This document shows positions 33,001 to 42,000 of a stretch of 64,000 nucleotides of DNA, one piece after another. Source of the stretch: an uncultured delta proteobacterium (lineage in GTDB: Bacteria; Myxococcota; Myxococcia; SLRQ01); the NCBI GenBank assembly GCA_963727485.1, contig CAVSGM010000002.1:1600001-1664000 (forward strand), given 5' to 3'. The stretch's first letter is position 1. Each line of letters starts with the position of its first letter. The position numbers are program-made.

Positions 33001-36000
33001 CGGGGCCGTGAGCACCGCCAAGCTCGCCGACGGCGCGGTCACCGAGGCCAAGCTCGCCGACGGCGCCGTGAGCACCGCCAAGCTCGCCGACGGCGCGGTC
33101 ACCGCCGCCAAGCTCGCCCCGGACGCGGCGGTCACCCATCTGGACGGCCTCACCGGCGACGTGTCCCTCGCCGGCAGCGGCGGGATCTCGGTCACCGACG
33201 GCAGCGGCCAGATCACCGTGGGCCTCACCCGCCCCCTCGACGCCGACAGCGTCGGGGGCGTGGCGCCTGCGAGCCTCGCCCGGCGCGACCCCCACGTGCT
33301 CACCGTCGCCACCACCGCCGGCGCCGCCCAGTTCACCTCGATCCAGGCGGCCCTCGACAGCATCACCGACAACGCCACCACGAGCTACCTCGTCCGGGTG
33401 GGCCCGGGCGTCTACGGCGAGCGGGTCACCATGAAGCAGAACGTGGACATCGTGGGGGCCGGCGAGGACGTCACCCTGATCACCGCCGGGGGCGCGAGCG
33501 CGGCGAGCGACGCCACGGTCACCGGCGCCCCGGACGCCGAGCTCCGGGACCTCACGGTGGAGAACACGGGCGGCGGCGGCAACCACGCCACCGCCTTCGC
33601 CGTGACCTCGACCGCCTCCCGCCTCCGCCACGTGCGGCTGCTCTCGGAGAACGCGCTGTTCAACGGCTACGGCATCTACGCCTCGGGCAACGGCGCGACC
33701 GTGGACGCCCGGGACGTCGACGTGACCATCTCCGCCGCGGGCAGCCGGGCCTACGGGCTCTACGCGGACGCCGGCGGCCGGATCACCTGCCGGGCCTGCC
33801 GCATCCACGCCCCCAGCGGCAGCGGCGCCACCTCCAACGACGCGGTCTTCGACGGCGGCGGCGGCACGCTCATGCTCGCCGGCTCCCTCGTCGACGGGCC
33901 CGCGTCGGGGACCTCGAGCTCGGTGGTCTGCGTCGGCAGCTACAACACGAGCTTCGCGGCGGTGGGCAGCAGCTGCAACTGACCGGCGTCGCCTCGGGCG
34001 GCGCCTGGCGCGGCGGGCGGCGCCAGTTCCCCGGCGCCCGCCCCGCTACCCGGGCATCTCCTCGCGCACCTCGGCGAGGAGGCGCGCCGTCTTCTCTGCC
34101 GTCTCCACCAGCTGCTGCTCCGAGTGGGTCGAGGCCAGGAAGAAGCGCAGCCTGGCTGCGTGGTCCGCCACCGCCGGGTACATGATCGGCTGGACGTTCA
34201 CCCCCGCGGCGAGGAGGCGCTGGGAGAGCATCAGGGCGTGCATGGAGTTGCCGGTGATCGCCGGGACCACCCCGCTCTCGCCCCTGGCCGGCCCGGTGTC
34301 CACGCCCCGCTCGACGAGCGCCTGGTGGAACACCCGGGCGTTGTGCTGCAGCTTCGCCACCCGCTCGGGCTCGGCGAGCATGTACTTGAGCGCCGAGAGG
34401 GCGGCCTGGCCGTTGGCCGGGGTGATGCCCGCGGAGAAGATGAACCCCGGCGCCGAGTAGCGCAGGTACTGGATGAGCTGCTTGGAGCCCGCGAGCCACC
34501 CGCCGCAGGAGGCCAGGCTCTTGGACAGGGTGCCCATCCAGATGTCCACCTCGTCGCCGTTCAGCCCGAAGTGCTCGCGCACGCCCTGGCCGGTCTTCCC
34601 CACCACCCCGAAGGAGTGGGCCTCGTCGACCATCAGCAGGCAGCCCCACTTCTCCTTGAGGCGCACGTACTCCGGGAGCGCGCAGATGTCGCCGTCCATG
34701 GAGTACACGCCCTCGACCACGATCAGCACCTTCTGGTGGTGGCGCCGCAGGGCCTGGAGCTGGTGCTCGAGGTGGGCCGGGTCGTCGTGGCGGAAGCCGT
34801 GGCGCGCCGAGCCGGCGAGCTTCACCCCCTGGAGGATCGAGTCGTGGATCAGCTCGTCGTGGAGCACCAGGTCGTCGGGCCCGAACAGGTGCCCGATGGC
34901 GTTGACGTTGGTGGCGTGGCCGGCGGTGAACACCAGCGCGTCCCCGGCGCCCTGGGCCTTGGCCAGCCCCGCCTCCAGCTCGCCGTGGAAGGGCCGCTCG
35001 CCGCTGGCCAGGCGCGAGGCCGACACCGAGGTGCCGTAGCGCTCCAGGGCGCCGGTGACCTCCGCGAGGATCCGCGGGTCGCCGGAGAGGCCGAGGTAGT
35101 TGTAGCTGGAGAAGTTCACCAGCTCCCGGCCCTCGACCACCGAGGTGTCCCGGGCGGTCCCCTGGTGGACCGCGAAGTAGGGGTTCTCCACGCCGGCGGC
35201 CTTGGCCATCCCCAGGCGCAGCTCCAGGTCCTTGACGCCCTTCCACTGGCCGGGGTCGATCCACTCCTTCTTCACCTCGAAGGGCCCGTCGTCGACCTCG
35301 CCGGCCTCGACCTCCCGGAGCTGGGCGACCACGTCCTCGGCGACGGCCAGCAGCGTGCCCTCGGCGTCGCGGATCCACAGGGTGCCGGTGAACCGGTCGC
35401 CCTCGGCGGGGCCGAAGGTGACCTCGGCCAGAAGCTCGCCCGCGGGGAAGGCGGCGAGCTGGCGGTAGCGGCCGATGGCCACCGGGGTCCCGGCGCGCTT
35501 CCACCTCGTCCAGGCCACGTAGGCCGACAGCTGCATCGCCGAGTCGATGACCAGGGGGTCCACCGTCCACCGGTCGCGCGGGCTCCCGGGGATCCAGGCG
35601 CCGGGGGTGCTGGTGCGGACCCGGCCCCGGACGAAGTCGTCACCGACCCCGTCGATGGCCACGATGCCCTGGAGCCTCGGCCCGTGGAAGGTGACCCCAC
35701 CGTAGAACCGCGAGAGGGGCAGGGTGGGCGCGGCGCCGCCCTCCCGCGGCCCCGGATCCTCGGGGACGTCGGTGAGCGGCCGCACCTGGGCGCGGTAGGC
35801 GAGGCTCCGGTTGCGACCGAGCTTGAGCTCGGCGGTCTCGCCGTGGACCTCGGTCACCAGGCGCACCGGGCTGTTCACCGTCACGCCCTGGAAGAGGCGC
35901 AGGTCGTCGACCTCGAAGCGCTCCGTGGTGGCCGCCACCTCGGCGAGACGGTCGAGGGCCGCGGCCAGCGGCAGCACCGGGGTCCCCTCGATGGCGTGGT

Positions 36001-39000: not shown

Positions 39001-42000
39001 GGGGGCTCTGGCGCAGGGCCCGGGCCATCCGGGCGGCCAGGTCGCGGAGGGCCGCCTCGTCGGGGGCGGAGAGGAGCACCAGCTCGGGGGCGGGCCCGGC
39101 GGCGGGCGCCTCGGCCTCGGGGGCGGCGTCGGGGACCGGCGTCACCGGCGGCGCCTCGACCTCACCTCGCCCACCTCGGCGAGCCCAGCCGCCTCGCGCT
39201 CGCCCCGGGCCCGGGCCAGCACCTTGCGGGCCGCGCCGGTGACCGTGGCCACCGGGTTCTCGGTCATCGCCCGGGCGGTCTTCCGGGCCACCGCCCGCAG
39301 CTCGTCGAGGTCCCGGACGGGCATCTCGGGGGTGAGCCGCTGCCACAGGCGCGGTGCGCGGACGTCGTCGAGGCCGTGGCCGTGGGTCCCGTGGCCGTTG
39401 ACCGCGTGGCCGTTGGTCCCGGCCACCGTCCGCAGGCTCGGCCGCCGCCCCGGTCCCCTCGAGAGGACGAGGTGGGCGTTGGTGCCCCCGAAGCCAAACG
39501 AGCTCACCGCCGCCACCCGCTCGTCGGTCTCCCAGGCCTCGGCGACGGTGGGGAAGCGGAACGGCGTCTCGTCGAGGGCGAGGTCGTCCCGGGGCTTCTC
39601 GAAGCCGGCCATCGGCGGCAGGCGCCCCTGGTGGACCGCGAGCGCGGCGCGGATGAGGCCGGCGACCCCCGCGGCGGACATGGTGTGGCCGACGTTGGCC
39701 TTGGAGGAGCCGAGGACCACGTCGTTCACCGCCGGCCCGATGGAGCGCATCAGCCCCCGGATCTCGGTGGGGTCGCCCACGGAGGTGCCGGTGCCGTGGG
39801 TCTCCAGGTAGCCGAGCTTCCCCGGGTCGATCCCGGCGTCGCGCCAGGCGTCCTCGATGGCCCCGGCCTGGCCGGCCTCCAGCGGCGCCATGGGCCCGTC
39901 GCCCCGGCCGTCGTTGTTGGTGCCCACGCCCTCGATCACCGCGTAGATCCGGTCGCCGTCGCGGACGGCGTCGTCGTAGCGCTTGAGGAGCACGATGCCC
40001 GCGCCGTCGCCCTCGACGAAGCCGTCGGCCCGGTGGTCGAAGGGCCGGCAGTGCCCGGAGTGGCTCATGGCGCCGATGCGCGAGAACACGATGTGGTGCT
40101 CGGGGGTCAGCGAGAGGTAGACCCCGCCGGCGAGCGCCGCGTCGATGTTCCCGGCGCGCAGGTGCTGCACCGCCTCGTCCACCGCCACCAGGGCCGAGGC
40201 GCAGGCGGCGTCGACGGTGAACGCGGGCCCGTGGAGGTCGAGCTCCTGGGCCACCGCCGAGGCGACCATGTTCCCCAAGACGCCCGGCGCCGACAGCGGC
40301 CTGGGCGGCACCACCCGCTCCACCGCCCGGGCGATCACCGAGGGATCCGCCGGGGCCTCGCCGAAGGCCCCGGTGGCCATCATCGCCGCGATCACCCGGC
40401 TGGTGAGCAGGGACCGGTACTCGAGGCCGGTGACCCCCATGAACACCCCGGTGCGCCGCGGCGCCTTTGCGGCGGTGAGCCCCGCGTCCTCGAGGGCCTC
40501 GAGGGCCATCTCCAGGGCGAAGCGCTGCTGGGGGTCCATGACCTCCACCCGCCGCGGGGGGATCGAGAGGGCCAGGGCCGGGAACGAGCGGACGTCGGCG
40601 ATGAAGCCGCCGGCGGGGGCGTAGCTCTTGTCGGGGATCCGGGGGTTGGCGTCGAGGAAGGCCTCGGCGCGCCACCGGTCCTTCGGCACCGGTCCGAAGC
40701 CATCGCGGGCGGAGAGGGTCATCTCCCAGTAGGACGGAAGGTCCCGGGCGCCGGCGAAGCGGGCGCCCATCCCCACGATGGCGATGGCTCGGTTGGACAT
40801 GGCGGGCTCAGCTCCGGGCGGCGGTCTTGGCGCGGGTCCACAGGGAGCGCGCCATGTGCTTGGCGAGGGTTACCCGGCTGCCCGCCGCGCCGGGGTTCCG
40901 GGAGCCCTCGGAGCCGAGGGAGCCGGTGAGGTACTGCTGCCGGGTCTTGCGCCGCTGCAGCTTTCCCGAGCTGGTCTTGGGCAGCGCCCCCGGCGAAAGA
41001 CAGACGACGTCGGCCACCACCACCGACAACGCCTCGTGGACCTTGCGCTTGACCGCCTCCACCAGGGCGTCGGTGTCCGTCTCCCGGGTCTCGAGGACCA
41101 CCACCAGCTCCTCGCTCTGCTCCCCGGGGCGGGAGCAGGCCACGACGTTGCCCTTGCGCACGCCGTCGACCTCGCCGACCTCCCACTCGATGCTCTGGGG
41201 GTGGAGGTTCTTGCCGTTGAGGATGATGAGGTCCTTGATCCGGCCGGTGACGTAGACCTCGCCGTCCTTCAGGTAGCCGAGGTCGCCGGTGTGGAGCCAC
41301 CCGTCCCGGAAGCTCTGGCGCGTGGCCTCCTCGTTCTCGAAGTAGCCCGGCGTCACCGACGGCCCCTTGAGGCACAGCTCGCCCTCGCGGCCCTCGGGGA
41401 GACGGTTGCCCTGCTCGTCGAAGACGGCGACCTCATGGCCCGGGAAGGTCGTCCCGCAGCTCACGTGCTCCAGCACGAAGGTGTCCTCGCCCTCGGGCTC
41501 GACCACCTCGCCCCGGTCCTGGAAGGCGTCGGCGTCGACCAGGCGGGTGCGCAGCTCCTGGTCGATGGGCTTGAGGCTGATGGCCAGCGTCGCCTCGGCC
41601 ATGCCATAGGCGGAGAGCACCGCGTTCTTGGGGAGCCCGCAGTGCTCGTGGAAGGTGCGGGTGAAGGTGCGGATGGTCTCGGGGTGGATGGGCTCGGCGC
41701 CGCAGCCGAGGATCTCGATGCAGGACAGGTCCCAGTCGGCGAGCTGCTTGTCGGTCGCCTTCCGGGCGGCGAGGGCGTAGGCGAAGTTCGGGGCGAAGGA
41801 GATCGTCCCCCGGACCTCGTGCATGGTCTGGAGCCAGCTGTTCGGCCGCTTGAGGAAGCGCAGGGTGGGGATGAAGGTGGTGTCCAGGCCGAAGAAGGTC
41901 GGGGCGATGACGAAGCCGATGAGCCCCATGTCGTGGTAGAGGGGCAGCCAGCCCACCGCCCGGGTGATCCTTGGCGTCGAGCTTCAGGCCGTCGTGGACG

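What a model noticed while it worked through the whole genome (the two positions that open the first line are those of the whole stretch)
34046..41956. Fatty acyl-loading polyketide synthase ending in a serine palmitoyltransferase domain: one-protein route to 4E-unsaturat [...]
A fatty acyl-AMP ligase precedes a KS-AT-ACP-KR-DH synthase (no ER) whose last domain is an alpha-oxoamine synthase closest to serine palmitoyltransferases; no stand-alone SPT was seen in the tables, but ceramide glucosyltransferase-like and ceramide reductase-like genes are present. The synthase likely extends a fatty acid to a 2E-enoyl-ACP and condenses it with serine, giving 3-keto-sphingosine with the 4E double bond built in. 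That would be a desaturase-free, PKS-based route to eukaryote-type sphingosine in bacteria.
Evidence so far: Domains: call 141 (the ligase is 40% identical to Caulobacter CCNA_01223). Best PDB hits of the last domain are SPTs 3a2b and 8guh, E 7e-70. The PLP motif GTLSKS is present here and as GT[LM]SKS in 11 of 11 relatives. 17 of 71 Myxococcota match, 14 of them in open frames of 1,800-2,550 aa, including 10 of 11 genomes of one family; the own open frame is 2,253 aa. Paper searches 152 and 158 listed one paper each (titles on fumonisin and gut lipids); neither was read.
(Added by a program. Inside this text positions count along the whole contig: contig position 1,600,001 is position 1 of the stretch shown here. 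"Call 12" and the like, gene names such as g00115 and contig names such as C1 are that model's own, and its searches are not shown. The text may have been shortened before it was handed on; [...] marks where a part breaks off. The agent that wrote the report below was given it as the finding of a first reader that could run no searches.)

Follow-up and report, generated by a model that had tools for sequence, protein, structure and literature searches.

The report
One-protein starter for methylated bacterial sphingolipids
In myxobacteria that mostly lack the usual first enzyme of sphingolipid synthesis, a fatty-acid-loading enzyme sits beside one large chain-extending protein that ends in a serine-palmitoyltransferase-like domain, and with a companion methyltransferase it likely builds an unsaturated, methyl-branched, fungal-like sphingolipid backbone, a variant of a polyketide route already shown in Pseudomonas.

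Summary
Real. A fatty acyl-AMP ligase precedes a KS-AT-ACP-KR-DH-oxoamine-synthase (AOS) gene with intact catalytic residues and no ER. Both genes carry one-base frameshifts that are probably assembly errors; 221 of 240 homologues are whole single chains in this order.

PKS-derived bacterial sphingolipids are published (PfSgaAB, Peters 2025), and this AOS shares the motifs of serine-specific SgaB. The pathway also has more parts.

In 301 Myxococcota genomes, 62 have the fused synthase and 121 a strong stand-alone SPT; only 1 has both. A ceramide-synthase-like gene occurs in 58 of 62 genomes tested. A mycolic-acid-type methyltransferase occurs in 54 genomes, all with the synthase; 52 of these have a matching desaturase.

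Most likely, a fatty acid on a free ACP is desaturated and methylated, extended once to a 2E-enoyl chain and condensed with serine. That gives a methyl-branched 4E-sphingoid base, C9-methyl if the desaturase is Delta5. Serine use, cycle number and positions are untested, and no cultured carrier was seen. The scan reported the core idea before on another genome (e1-9164375); the methyltransferase module was not in that note.

The parts
40808..42578 (-). Fatty acyl-AMP ligase (AasR-like), split by a one-base insertion near 41968 (probable assembly error)
   Evidence: (PRK09192 on both pieces); FAAL in 46 of 47 related loci
39142..40800 (-). KS domain and linker (catalytic Cys-His-His intact); N-terminal part of the fused synthase, frame break near 39160
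37979..38821 (-). AT domain, GHSLG and HAFH motifs (malonyl-type; motif meaning recalled)
37376..37579 (-). Integral ACP with conserved Ser (GFDSL)
36260..36724 (-). KR catalytic domain: NADPH-binding loop, Lys/Ser/Tyr, LAD motif (B-type-like; type recalled)
35261..36100 (-). Double-hotdog dehydratase; His35 and Asp186 of this segment invariant in 68 of 68 aligned sequences
   Evidence: (pLDDT 93)
34046..35272 (-). Alpha-oxoamine synthase domain of the SgaB type: PLP Lys, stacking His, carboxylate Arg, Ser at the gatekeeper site
32016..32771 (-). Sfp/HetI-type phosphopantetheinyl transferase; follows the synthase directly in both same-family genomes
16733..17710 (+). NAD-dependent epimerase/reductase, the genome's best hit to the E. 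coli BL21 CerR orthologue (33%, E 1.5e-39); homologues lie in or beside the cassette in 6 of 47 loci

Best explanation
This locus encodes a fatty acyl-AMP ligase and one KS-AT-ACP-KR-DH-AOS protein that likely replace serine palmitoyltransferase, likely extending a modified fatty acid once to a 2E-enoyl chain and likely condensing it with serine into a methyl-branched 3-keto-4E-sphingoid base for ceramides. Steps: (1) The FAAL loads a long-chain fatty acid onto a free ACP (inferred; in this genome the ACP lies at G000:C1:858579-858827). (2) A desaturase supplies a cis double bond, and a short mycolic-acid-type SAM methyltransferase next to the ACP modifies it (inferred). Methyl branching is preferred over cyclopropanation because the bicarbonate-binding His is Gln. 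(3) KS/AT/KR/DH add one malonyl unit and leave the 2E-enoyl thioester (domains shown; one cycle inferred). (4) The AOS condenses it with L-serine (inferred from SgaB). (5) A bCerS-like GNAT (G000:C3) N-acylates and the CerR-like reductase (window 16733-17710) reduces C3 (inferred). Starter carbon k becomes base carbon k+4, so a C16 Delta5 starter would give a C20 base with a 4E bond and a methyl at C9, the fungal position. Odds: serine sphingoid replacing SPT about 0.8; DH-built 4E bond after one cycle about 0.5; methyl branch about 0.6; C9 exactly about 0.3.
For: Architecture KS-AT-ACP-KR-DH-AOS in 221 of 240 homologues, 4 more with a spurious ER call and 15 lacking the N-terminus; catalytic residues intact. 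By eye, the AOS motifs match PfSgaB (sequence seen), which prefers Ser almost exclusively over Ala and Gly. Ser at the ThAOS V79 site in 240 of 240; KBL has Val and ALAS Thr. Fused synthase in 62 and strong SPT (430 bits or more) in 121 of 301 genomes, overlap 1; 1 of 28 in a second set. bCerS-like GNAT in 58 of 62 and 22 of 28; it is the genome's only hit to BL21 YghO (36%, E 1.6e-74), which lies beside the aasR-cerR-acp-spt genes. Methyltransferase in 54 of 301, 53 in the fused set and the 54th with KR-DH at a contig end, and in 25 of 28. Desaturase in 52 of those 54 against 2 of 9 synthase genomes without the methyltransferase. Invariant Gln169 where all five PDB alignments shown have His.
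Against: No enzyme or lipid data. All named carriers seen are metagenome bins. The AOS is as similar to Actinoplanes/Streptomyces KS-AT-ACP-AOS proteins (56-57%) as to SgaB-type AOSs (47-54%), and Ser at the gatekeeper also occurs in Ala-using AONS. No SPT HMM cut-off is met. KS-AT-ACP-KR-DH is the order of iterative PfaA/enediyne PKSs (recalled), so more than one cycle is possible. Delta5 rests only on a family hit far under cut-off (156 of 500 bits); this desaturase is also common in SPT-bearing Myxococcaceae. 9 of 62 synthase genomes lack the methyltransferase, and 4 of 62 tested lack the GNAT. Kin are not independent, so the co-occurrence counts overstate. Sorangium, the myxobacterium recalled to make a C9-methyl C20 base, is reported to have a stand-alone SPT and was not shown to carry this synthase. 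In this genome the cassette is split over three places.
Confidence: 0.55

Rival explanations
1. Serine-derived sphingoid base, but the PKS is iterative and leaves a conjugated di- or triene (4,6- or 4,6,8-), or the DH isomerises the bond to 5Z; the methyltransferase acts on that or on another alkene.
For: No ER; PfaA HMM hits on KS and AT; the known SgaA is called iterative; top DH structure hits include the dehydratase/isomerase GphF DH1, though at 17% identity.
Against: The FAAL and free ACP point to a pre-made long starter. The methyltransferase co-occurs with desaturases, which suggests an isolated cis alkene as substrate (CMAS chemistry recalled).
Confidence: 0.17
2. The methyltransferase makes a cyclopropane, or acts after ceramide formation, so the PKS/AOS gives plain 4E-sphingenine that is decorated later.
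For: Best PDB and HMM hits are cyclopropane synthases. Cyclopropane sphingoid bases occur in Sphingomonas. The gene is often unlinked: in only 15 of 47 loci.
Against: At 282 aa it lacks the extra N-terminal domain of phospholipid CFA synthases and resembles mycolic-acid enzymes. It directly abuts the free ACP in this genome and its family. The His is replaced by Gln in 20 of 20.
Confidence: 0.13
3. The AOS uses alanine or glycine and makes a 1-deoxy-sphingoid or aminolipid.
For: Ser at the gatekeeper is shared with Ala-using AONS, and ThAOS V79S still turns over Gly fast. Related fused AOSs of other architecture are equally similar.
Against: SgaB-type motifs; complementary distribution with SPT; two ceramide-glucosyltransferase-family (GT21) genes in the genome that would need a 1-OH, though they score best as HpnI and stay under cut-off.
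Confidence: 0.08
4. A trans-acting enoyl reductase saturates the chain, so the synthase only adds two carbons and yields a sphinganine like SgaAB.
For: The known PKS route gives saturated C24-C28 sphinganines; the genome has ER-like oxidoreductases elsewhere.
Against: No ER-family gene among the recurrent neighbour families; one locus of those tested (L051) has an ER-like gene about 6 kb away.
Confidence: 0.05
5. In this genome both genes are true pseudogenes.
For: Two frame breaks in the assembly; the supporting contigs are single and of depth 2 to 2.6.
Against: Those contigs restore the frames; housekeeping purF and lpxB are split alike; catalytic residues are intact.
Confidence: 0.02

Closest known systems
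PfSgaA/SgaB/SgaC of Pseudomonas fluorescens MYb115 (Peters et al. 2025, PMC12134224) and the look-alike PKS + AOS + SDR loci (L117 Pseudomonas, L118 Sinorhizobium)
   Same: A type I PKS supplies an acyl chain to an AOS that makes a 3-keto-sphingoid base. The AOS motifs are nearly the same, and it shows the same BioF-over-SPT HMM profile.
   Different: Here the AOS is fused to the PKS. The order is KS-AT-ACP-KR-DH without ER, while the SgaA-type stand-ins carry an ER. It has a FAAL and free ACP starter, a methyltransferase and desaturase, and bCerS/CerR-like partners rather than a clustered SgaC. It is complementary to SPT, so it looks like core lipid synthesis.
Rhodobacterial AasR-AcpR-Spt-CerS-CerR ceramide pathway (PMC9386255, PMC11324152)
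   Same: A FAAL-type ligase and a dedicated ACP feed an AOS. The genome's best hits to BL21 AasR, CerR and YghO are the window FAAL, the window epimerase and the C3 GNAT.
   Different: A PKS module sits between the ACP and the condensing enzyme, and the condensing domain is SgaB-type, not alphaproteobacterial Spt (216 of 670 bits).
Fungal 9-methyl-4E,8E-sphingadienine pathway (C9-methyltransferase; PMC9325734, PMC2444003)
   Same: A CMAS/cyclopropane-synthase-related methyltransferase and a desaturase; predicted similar end product.
   Different: The fungal enzyme is 525 aa with two transmembrane helices and modifies ceramide. Here it is 282 aa and ACP-linked, predicted to act before condensation, and the 4E bond would come from a DH.
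RedL of undecylprodigiosin (FAAL-ACP-KS-AT-ACP-OAS; recalled, not tested) and other fused PKS-AOS proteins seen here (L115, L116, L083)
   Same: A PKS chain released by a C-terminal oxoamine synthase in the same protein.
   Different: RedL lacks KR/DH and uses glycine (recalled). The others have KS-AT-ACP-AOS, KS-AT-DH-ER-KR-ACP-AOS or FAAL-ACP-KS-ACP-AOS order.

Membership tests
Serine palmitoyltransferase (activity class) | PLP Lys, stacking His, Asp and carboxylate Arg of the AOS fold | tested here: met
Serine palmitoyltransferase (activity class) | Ser at the ThAOS V79 / SpSPT S102 site | tested here: met
   240 of 240; site defined in PMC11906848; also Ser in AONS, so not sufficient
Serine palmitoyltransferase (activity class) | Condenses L-serine with a long acyl thioester | not testable with these tools
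   needs an assay
Canonical bacterial SPT families (NF047600, NF047599, NF047603) | Curated HMM cut-off | tested here: not met
   313/640, 279/500, 216/670 bits; the SgaB-type L117 fails alike
SgaAB-type PKS sphingolipid cluster | SgaB-type AOS | tested here: met
   motifs match PfSgaB by eye; 49% to stand-in L117
SgaAB-type PKS sphingolipid cluster | Two genes, PKS and separate AOS | tested here: not met
   fused in one chain in the family
SgaAB-type PKS sphingolipid cluster | Fully reducing PKS with ER giving saturated sphinganines | tested here: not met
   no ER; ER present in the stand-ins, PfSgaA itself not examined
SgaAB-type PKS sphingolipid cluster | SgaC-type SDR in the cluster | tested here: not met
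   best SDR hits (up to 39%) lie elsewhere in the genome; a CerR-like epimerase recurs instead
BioF (8-amino-7-oxononanoate synthase) | TIGR00858 cut-off and biotin gene context | tested here: not met
   332 of 426 bits; a separate BioF passes (466) beside a bioA-like gene
KBL / ALAS (glycine-using AOS) | Val or Thr at the gatekeeper site | tested here: not met
   Ser
Cyclopropane fatty acid / mycolic acid synthase (companion gene) | CMAS fold and SAM motif | tested here: met
Cyclopropane fatty acid / mycolic acid synthase (companion gene) | His at the bicarbonate site (role recalled) | tested here: not met
   Gln169 in 20 of 20 against His in the five PDB alignments shown; those five include UmaA, so His does not sort cyclopropanases from methylases cleanly
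Fungal sphingolipid C9-methyltransferase (companion gene) | About 525 aa with two N-terminal transmembrane helices | tested here: not met
   282 aa, starting at the catalytic domain
Fungal sphingolipid C9-methyltransferase (companion gene) | Methylates C9 of the sphingoid base | not testable with these tools
   no fungal sequence or profile was available
RedL-type FAAL-PKS-OAS | FAAL-ACP-KS-AT-ACP-OAS in one chain without KR/DH (recalled) | tested here: not met
   FAAL is a separate gene; KR and DH present

The most novel reading that the evidence does not exclude
Several Myxococcota families have replaced SPT with an ACP assembly line that makes the fungal-type 9-methyl-4E,8E-sphingadienine skeleton before the amino acid is added: a Delta5 fatty acid is methylated on a free ACP, one PKS round installs the 4E bond, and the fused AOS adds serine. 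This would be a bacterial, independently evolved route to a lipid signature treated as fungal-specific, with no sphingolipid desaturase.
Probability: 0.28. Interest if true: 0.85.

Novelty: new variant of a known kind. Interest (0 to 1): 0.62.

Why it matters
It would show that SPT-based surveys miss sphingolipid producers: about a fifth of the Myxococcota genomes sampled, whose gene is auto-named 8-amino-7-oxononanoate synthase or aminotransferase. It would give a DH-based way to build the 4E bond, and possibly a bacterial source of 9-methyl sphingoid bases, which are read as fungal markers. It is directly testable with five soluble proteins and could serve as a biocatalytic route to defined sphingosines.

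Tried and rejected
Literature: ten searches. None listed a paper on a fused Myxococcota KS-AT-ACP-KR-DH-AOS; two searches returned 0. In Peters 2025 the terms myxo, fused, Sorangium and Deltaproteo occur 0 times in the main text. 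Its Supplementary Data 4 (6,101 two-gene clusters) and part 2 of the supplement PDF were not read and could bear on novelty. Keck 2011 and the Stankeviciute preprint are not held; most subscription papers are outside the library.

Link to Sorangium: not established. No cultured genus appeared among named hits.

Neighbours rejected as parts: the ceramidase-like gene (44253-45608), the membrane protein (42855-43988) and the secreted protein (32801-33982) occur in 0 of 47 related loci. The 399-aa family downstream in close relatives is unrelated to 42855 and has no Pfam hit.

Sphingolipid Delta4-desaturase (PF08557): no hit, but nothing rang in the controls either, so uninformative. The two PF00487 genes score best as DesA types. 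LPS replacement is not supported: lpxC and lpxB are present.

ESM Atlas for the synthase gave only hits under 0.9. No RNA holder listed. A genome-wide frameshift count timed out and was not repeated. each included one off-frame query; those blanks mean nothing and were redone. The top of the AOS tree was cut from view, so I do not claim monophyly with SgaB. No complex prediction was run.

Full report
1. What is in the window. On the minus strand lie a fatty acyl-AMP ligase (42578-40808), a KS (40800-39142) and, in another frame, AT, ACP, KR, DH and an alpha-oxoamine synthase (AOS) ending at 34046. A PPTase follows at about 32771-32016. Full-length homologues align to the KS frame up to residue 490-510 and then to the AT frame, so the synthase is one gene with a frame break near 39160. 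The ligase has an extra base near 41968. One contig of run X1 lacks that base, and one of X3 restores the frame at 39159-39162 (depth 2 and 2.6, so weak alone). purF and lpxB are split alike. I take both breaks as assembly errors.

2. The synthase family. Of 240 homologues from two searches, 221 read KS-AT-ACP-KR-DH-AOS, 4 have the same order with a spurious short ER hit, and 15 are N-terminally incomplete. The 225 with both KS and AOS are 1,727-2,498 aa. In 32 aligned full-length relatives and the window, the KS Cys/His/His, AT GHSLG with HAFH or HGFH, ACP GFDSL, KR Lys/Ser/Tyr and DH His/Asp are kept. The DH dyad is invariant in 68 of 68, and the model (pLDDT 93) matches PKS dehydratases. 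HAFH as malonyl-type and the LAD/EDA motif as B-type KR, which feeds trans dehydration, are recalled readings. All named carriers seen are metagenome bins.

3. The last domain. Best sequence and fold matches are the S. multivorum SPT structures, but at 35% identity and barely ahead of ThAOS and KBL. More telling is Peters et al. 2025 (PMC12134224; parts 1-3 of 13 of the main text, passages, and part 1 of the supplement PDF). There the PKS SgaA and the AOS SgaB make C24-C28 sphinganines, and SgaB uses serine almost exclusively. By eye, SgaB shares with this domain YGTSVSASRL, GHATNV, GHLFGP, LHDELIH, YSMDGD, VDEAHS, VDIWMGTLSK and QPIxYPAV. An SgaAB-type Pseudomonas locus (L117) carries the same motifs, is 49% identical, and also scores BioF above SPT and under both cut-offs. 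The gatekeeper site is Val in KBL, Thr in ALAS and Ser in SPT and AONS (PMC11906848, passages). It is Ser in 240 of 240 here. Against: actinobacterial KS-AT-ACP-AOS proteins are as similar (56-57%) and have Ala there, so this group probably covers more than one substrate. The genome's other AOS is a real BioF.

4. It stands where SPT is missing. In 301 Myxococcota genomes, 70 match the ACP-to-AOS part. I removed 8 in short or different frames (G035, G164, G186, G296, G054, G089, G141, G145), leaving 62. For about 15 of the 62 the architecture rests on a long open frame or a contig-end piece and was not read. The SPT profile NF047600 hits 145 genomes at E 1e-110, none over its cut-off. 121 reach 430 bits or more, my own threshold to drop the weaker KBL-like band (B. 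subtilis rings in the control). Only G015 (72% complete, 1,130 contigs) has both; with all 145 the overlap is 3. In a second set of 28 genomes reached through loci (at least 3 repeat genomes of the first set), 1 has such an SPT. A GNAT at G000:C3 is the only hit to BL21 YghO (36%). YghO lies just before the BL21 ligase gene, so I take it to be ECD_02850, the listed orthologue of Caulobacter CerS CC_1154. Homologues occur in 58 of 62 handles (61 fused genomes plus G250) and 22 of 28. The best hit to BL21 CerR is window 16733-17710. Kin are not independent, so these counts are patterns, not statistics.

5. In 47 loci with enough flank, a FAAL is present in 46, a free ACP in at least 37, a CMAS-family methyltransferase in 15, the epimerase in 6, the GNAT in 5 and the PPTase in 2. 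Soluble acyl-ACP or membrane desaturases also appear in or beside the cassette. In this genome the methyltransferase and ACP lie on C1 beside a membrane desaturase, 80% and 71% identical to the cassette genes of G128. Genome-wide, the methyltransferase is in 54 of 301 genomes: 53 of the 62, plus G250, whose KR-DH ends at a contig edge. It is also in 25 of 28. Of the 54, 44 have the membrane desaturase and 8 of the other 10 the soluble one. Only 2 of the 9 synthase genomes without the methyltransferase have either. The membrane desaturase is also widespread in SPT-bearing genomes (98 of 301), so it is not specific. The methyltransferase is 282 aa, like mycolic-acid enzymes, which act on ACP-bound chains (recalled). 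It has an invariant Gln where the five PDB alignments shown have His; that His binds bicarbonate in cyclopropane synthases (recalled).

6. Mechanism. Shown: genes, domains, residues and co-occurrence. Inferred: FAAL loads the free ACP; desaturation and methylation; one extension to 2E-enoyl-ACP; serine condensation to a 3-keto-4E base; N-acylation by the GNAT and reduction by the CerR-like enzyme. One extension moves starter carbon k to base carbon k+4. The membrane desaturase's best NCBIfam hit is the Bacillus Delta5 family (156 of 500 bits). A C16 Delta5 starter would therefore give a C20 base methylated at C9, as in fungal 4E,8E-9-methyl bases (PMC2444003, passages). Their methyltransferase is described as fungal-only and cyclopropane-synthase-like (PMC9325734, passages). 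I recall that Sorangium cellulosum makes C9-methyl C20 sphingosine (Keck 2011; I saw only its title in a reference list). Sorangium has a FAAL-ACP operon but is reported to have a stand-alone SPT (PMC9386255, passages and supplement), and I could not show that it has this synthase. This is a lead only. Rivals are an iterative polyene, a cyclopropane or late modification, Ala/Gly use and a trans-ER.

7. Known versus new. It works like SgaAB and like the rhodobacterial AasR-AcpR-Spt pathway, but is a member of neither: fused, no ER, and under the SPT cut-offs. Fused PKS-AOS proteins of other orders exist (RedL recalled). Ten literature searches listed no paper on this family, but subscription papers and the SgaAB homologue table were not seen. 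PMC6148460 (term search, 0 hits), PMC10626005 (passages) and PMC11324152 (passages) added only background. The scan noted the one-protein idea on another genome; two further look-ups found nothing on the methyltransferase.

8. Verdict. Observation partly confirmed, interpretation partly supported. New variant of a known kind; interest 0.62. The boldest reading, a bacterial ACP-line route to the fungal-type 9-methyl base, has probability 0.28 and interest 0.85.

Noticed in passing
G000:C1:856533-858827 (L139:7533-9828): Membrane desaturase divergent from a CMAS methyltransferase-ACP pair. It is the detached half of the cassette, which is joined to the FAAL and synthase in same-family genomes G128 and G283.
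   Followed up: yes
window 44253-45608 (-): Secreted or membrane protein with a neutral/alkaline ceramidase N-terminal domain (E 2e-11), 1.7 kb from the ligase; not conserved beside the synthase elsewhere.
   Followed up: partly
window 45777-47199: purF is split by a frameshift; lpxB (G000:C9) likewise. The assembly has scattered one-base indels.
   Followed up: partly
window 42855-43988 (+): 377-aa polytopic membrane protein with no Pfam or NCBIfam hit, divergent from the ligase.
   Followed up: partly
L116:3560-11158 (Planktothrix plasmid): A fully reducing PKS (KS-AT-DH-ER-KR-ACP) fused to an SgaB-like AOS among GT39 glycosyltransferases: another one-protein candidate, in a cyanobacterium.
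   Followed up: partly
L076-L082, L086-L089, L108, L111, L112, L115: Actinoplanes and Streptomyces KS-AT-ACP-AOS proteins next to MMPL transporters, with Ala instead of Ser at the gatekeeper site; possibly another amino acid or an aminolipid.
   Followed up: partly
L083-L085, L094, L095, L099, L109: Butyrivibrio/Lachnospiraceae FAAL-ACP-KS-ACP-AOS proteins with a trans-AT, thioesterase and carboxyltransferase, in gut or rumen Firmicutes.
   Followed up: no
L144:5778-10304 (Streptomyces plasmid): AOS, bCerS-like GNAT, epimerase and condensation-domain genes in one operon: a ceramide-like pathway in an actinomycete.
   Followed up: no
G000:C1 (L169:3266-6067): A second FAAL-like protein fused to an epimerase/reductase domain, about 12 kb from the methyltransferase-ACP pair.
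   Followed up: no
G055, G199, G280: Small genomes (2.1-2.7 Mb) in the large family f2 keep the FAAL-ACP-synthase and two GNATs but lack the methyltransferase and both desaturases with these queries; a natural unmethylated control.
   Followed up: partly
G000:C1:149263 and C1:1022424: Two GT21 (ceramide glucosyltransferase family, HpnI-like, under cut-off) genes; candidate head-group enzymes.
   Followed up: partly
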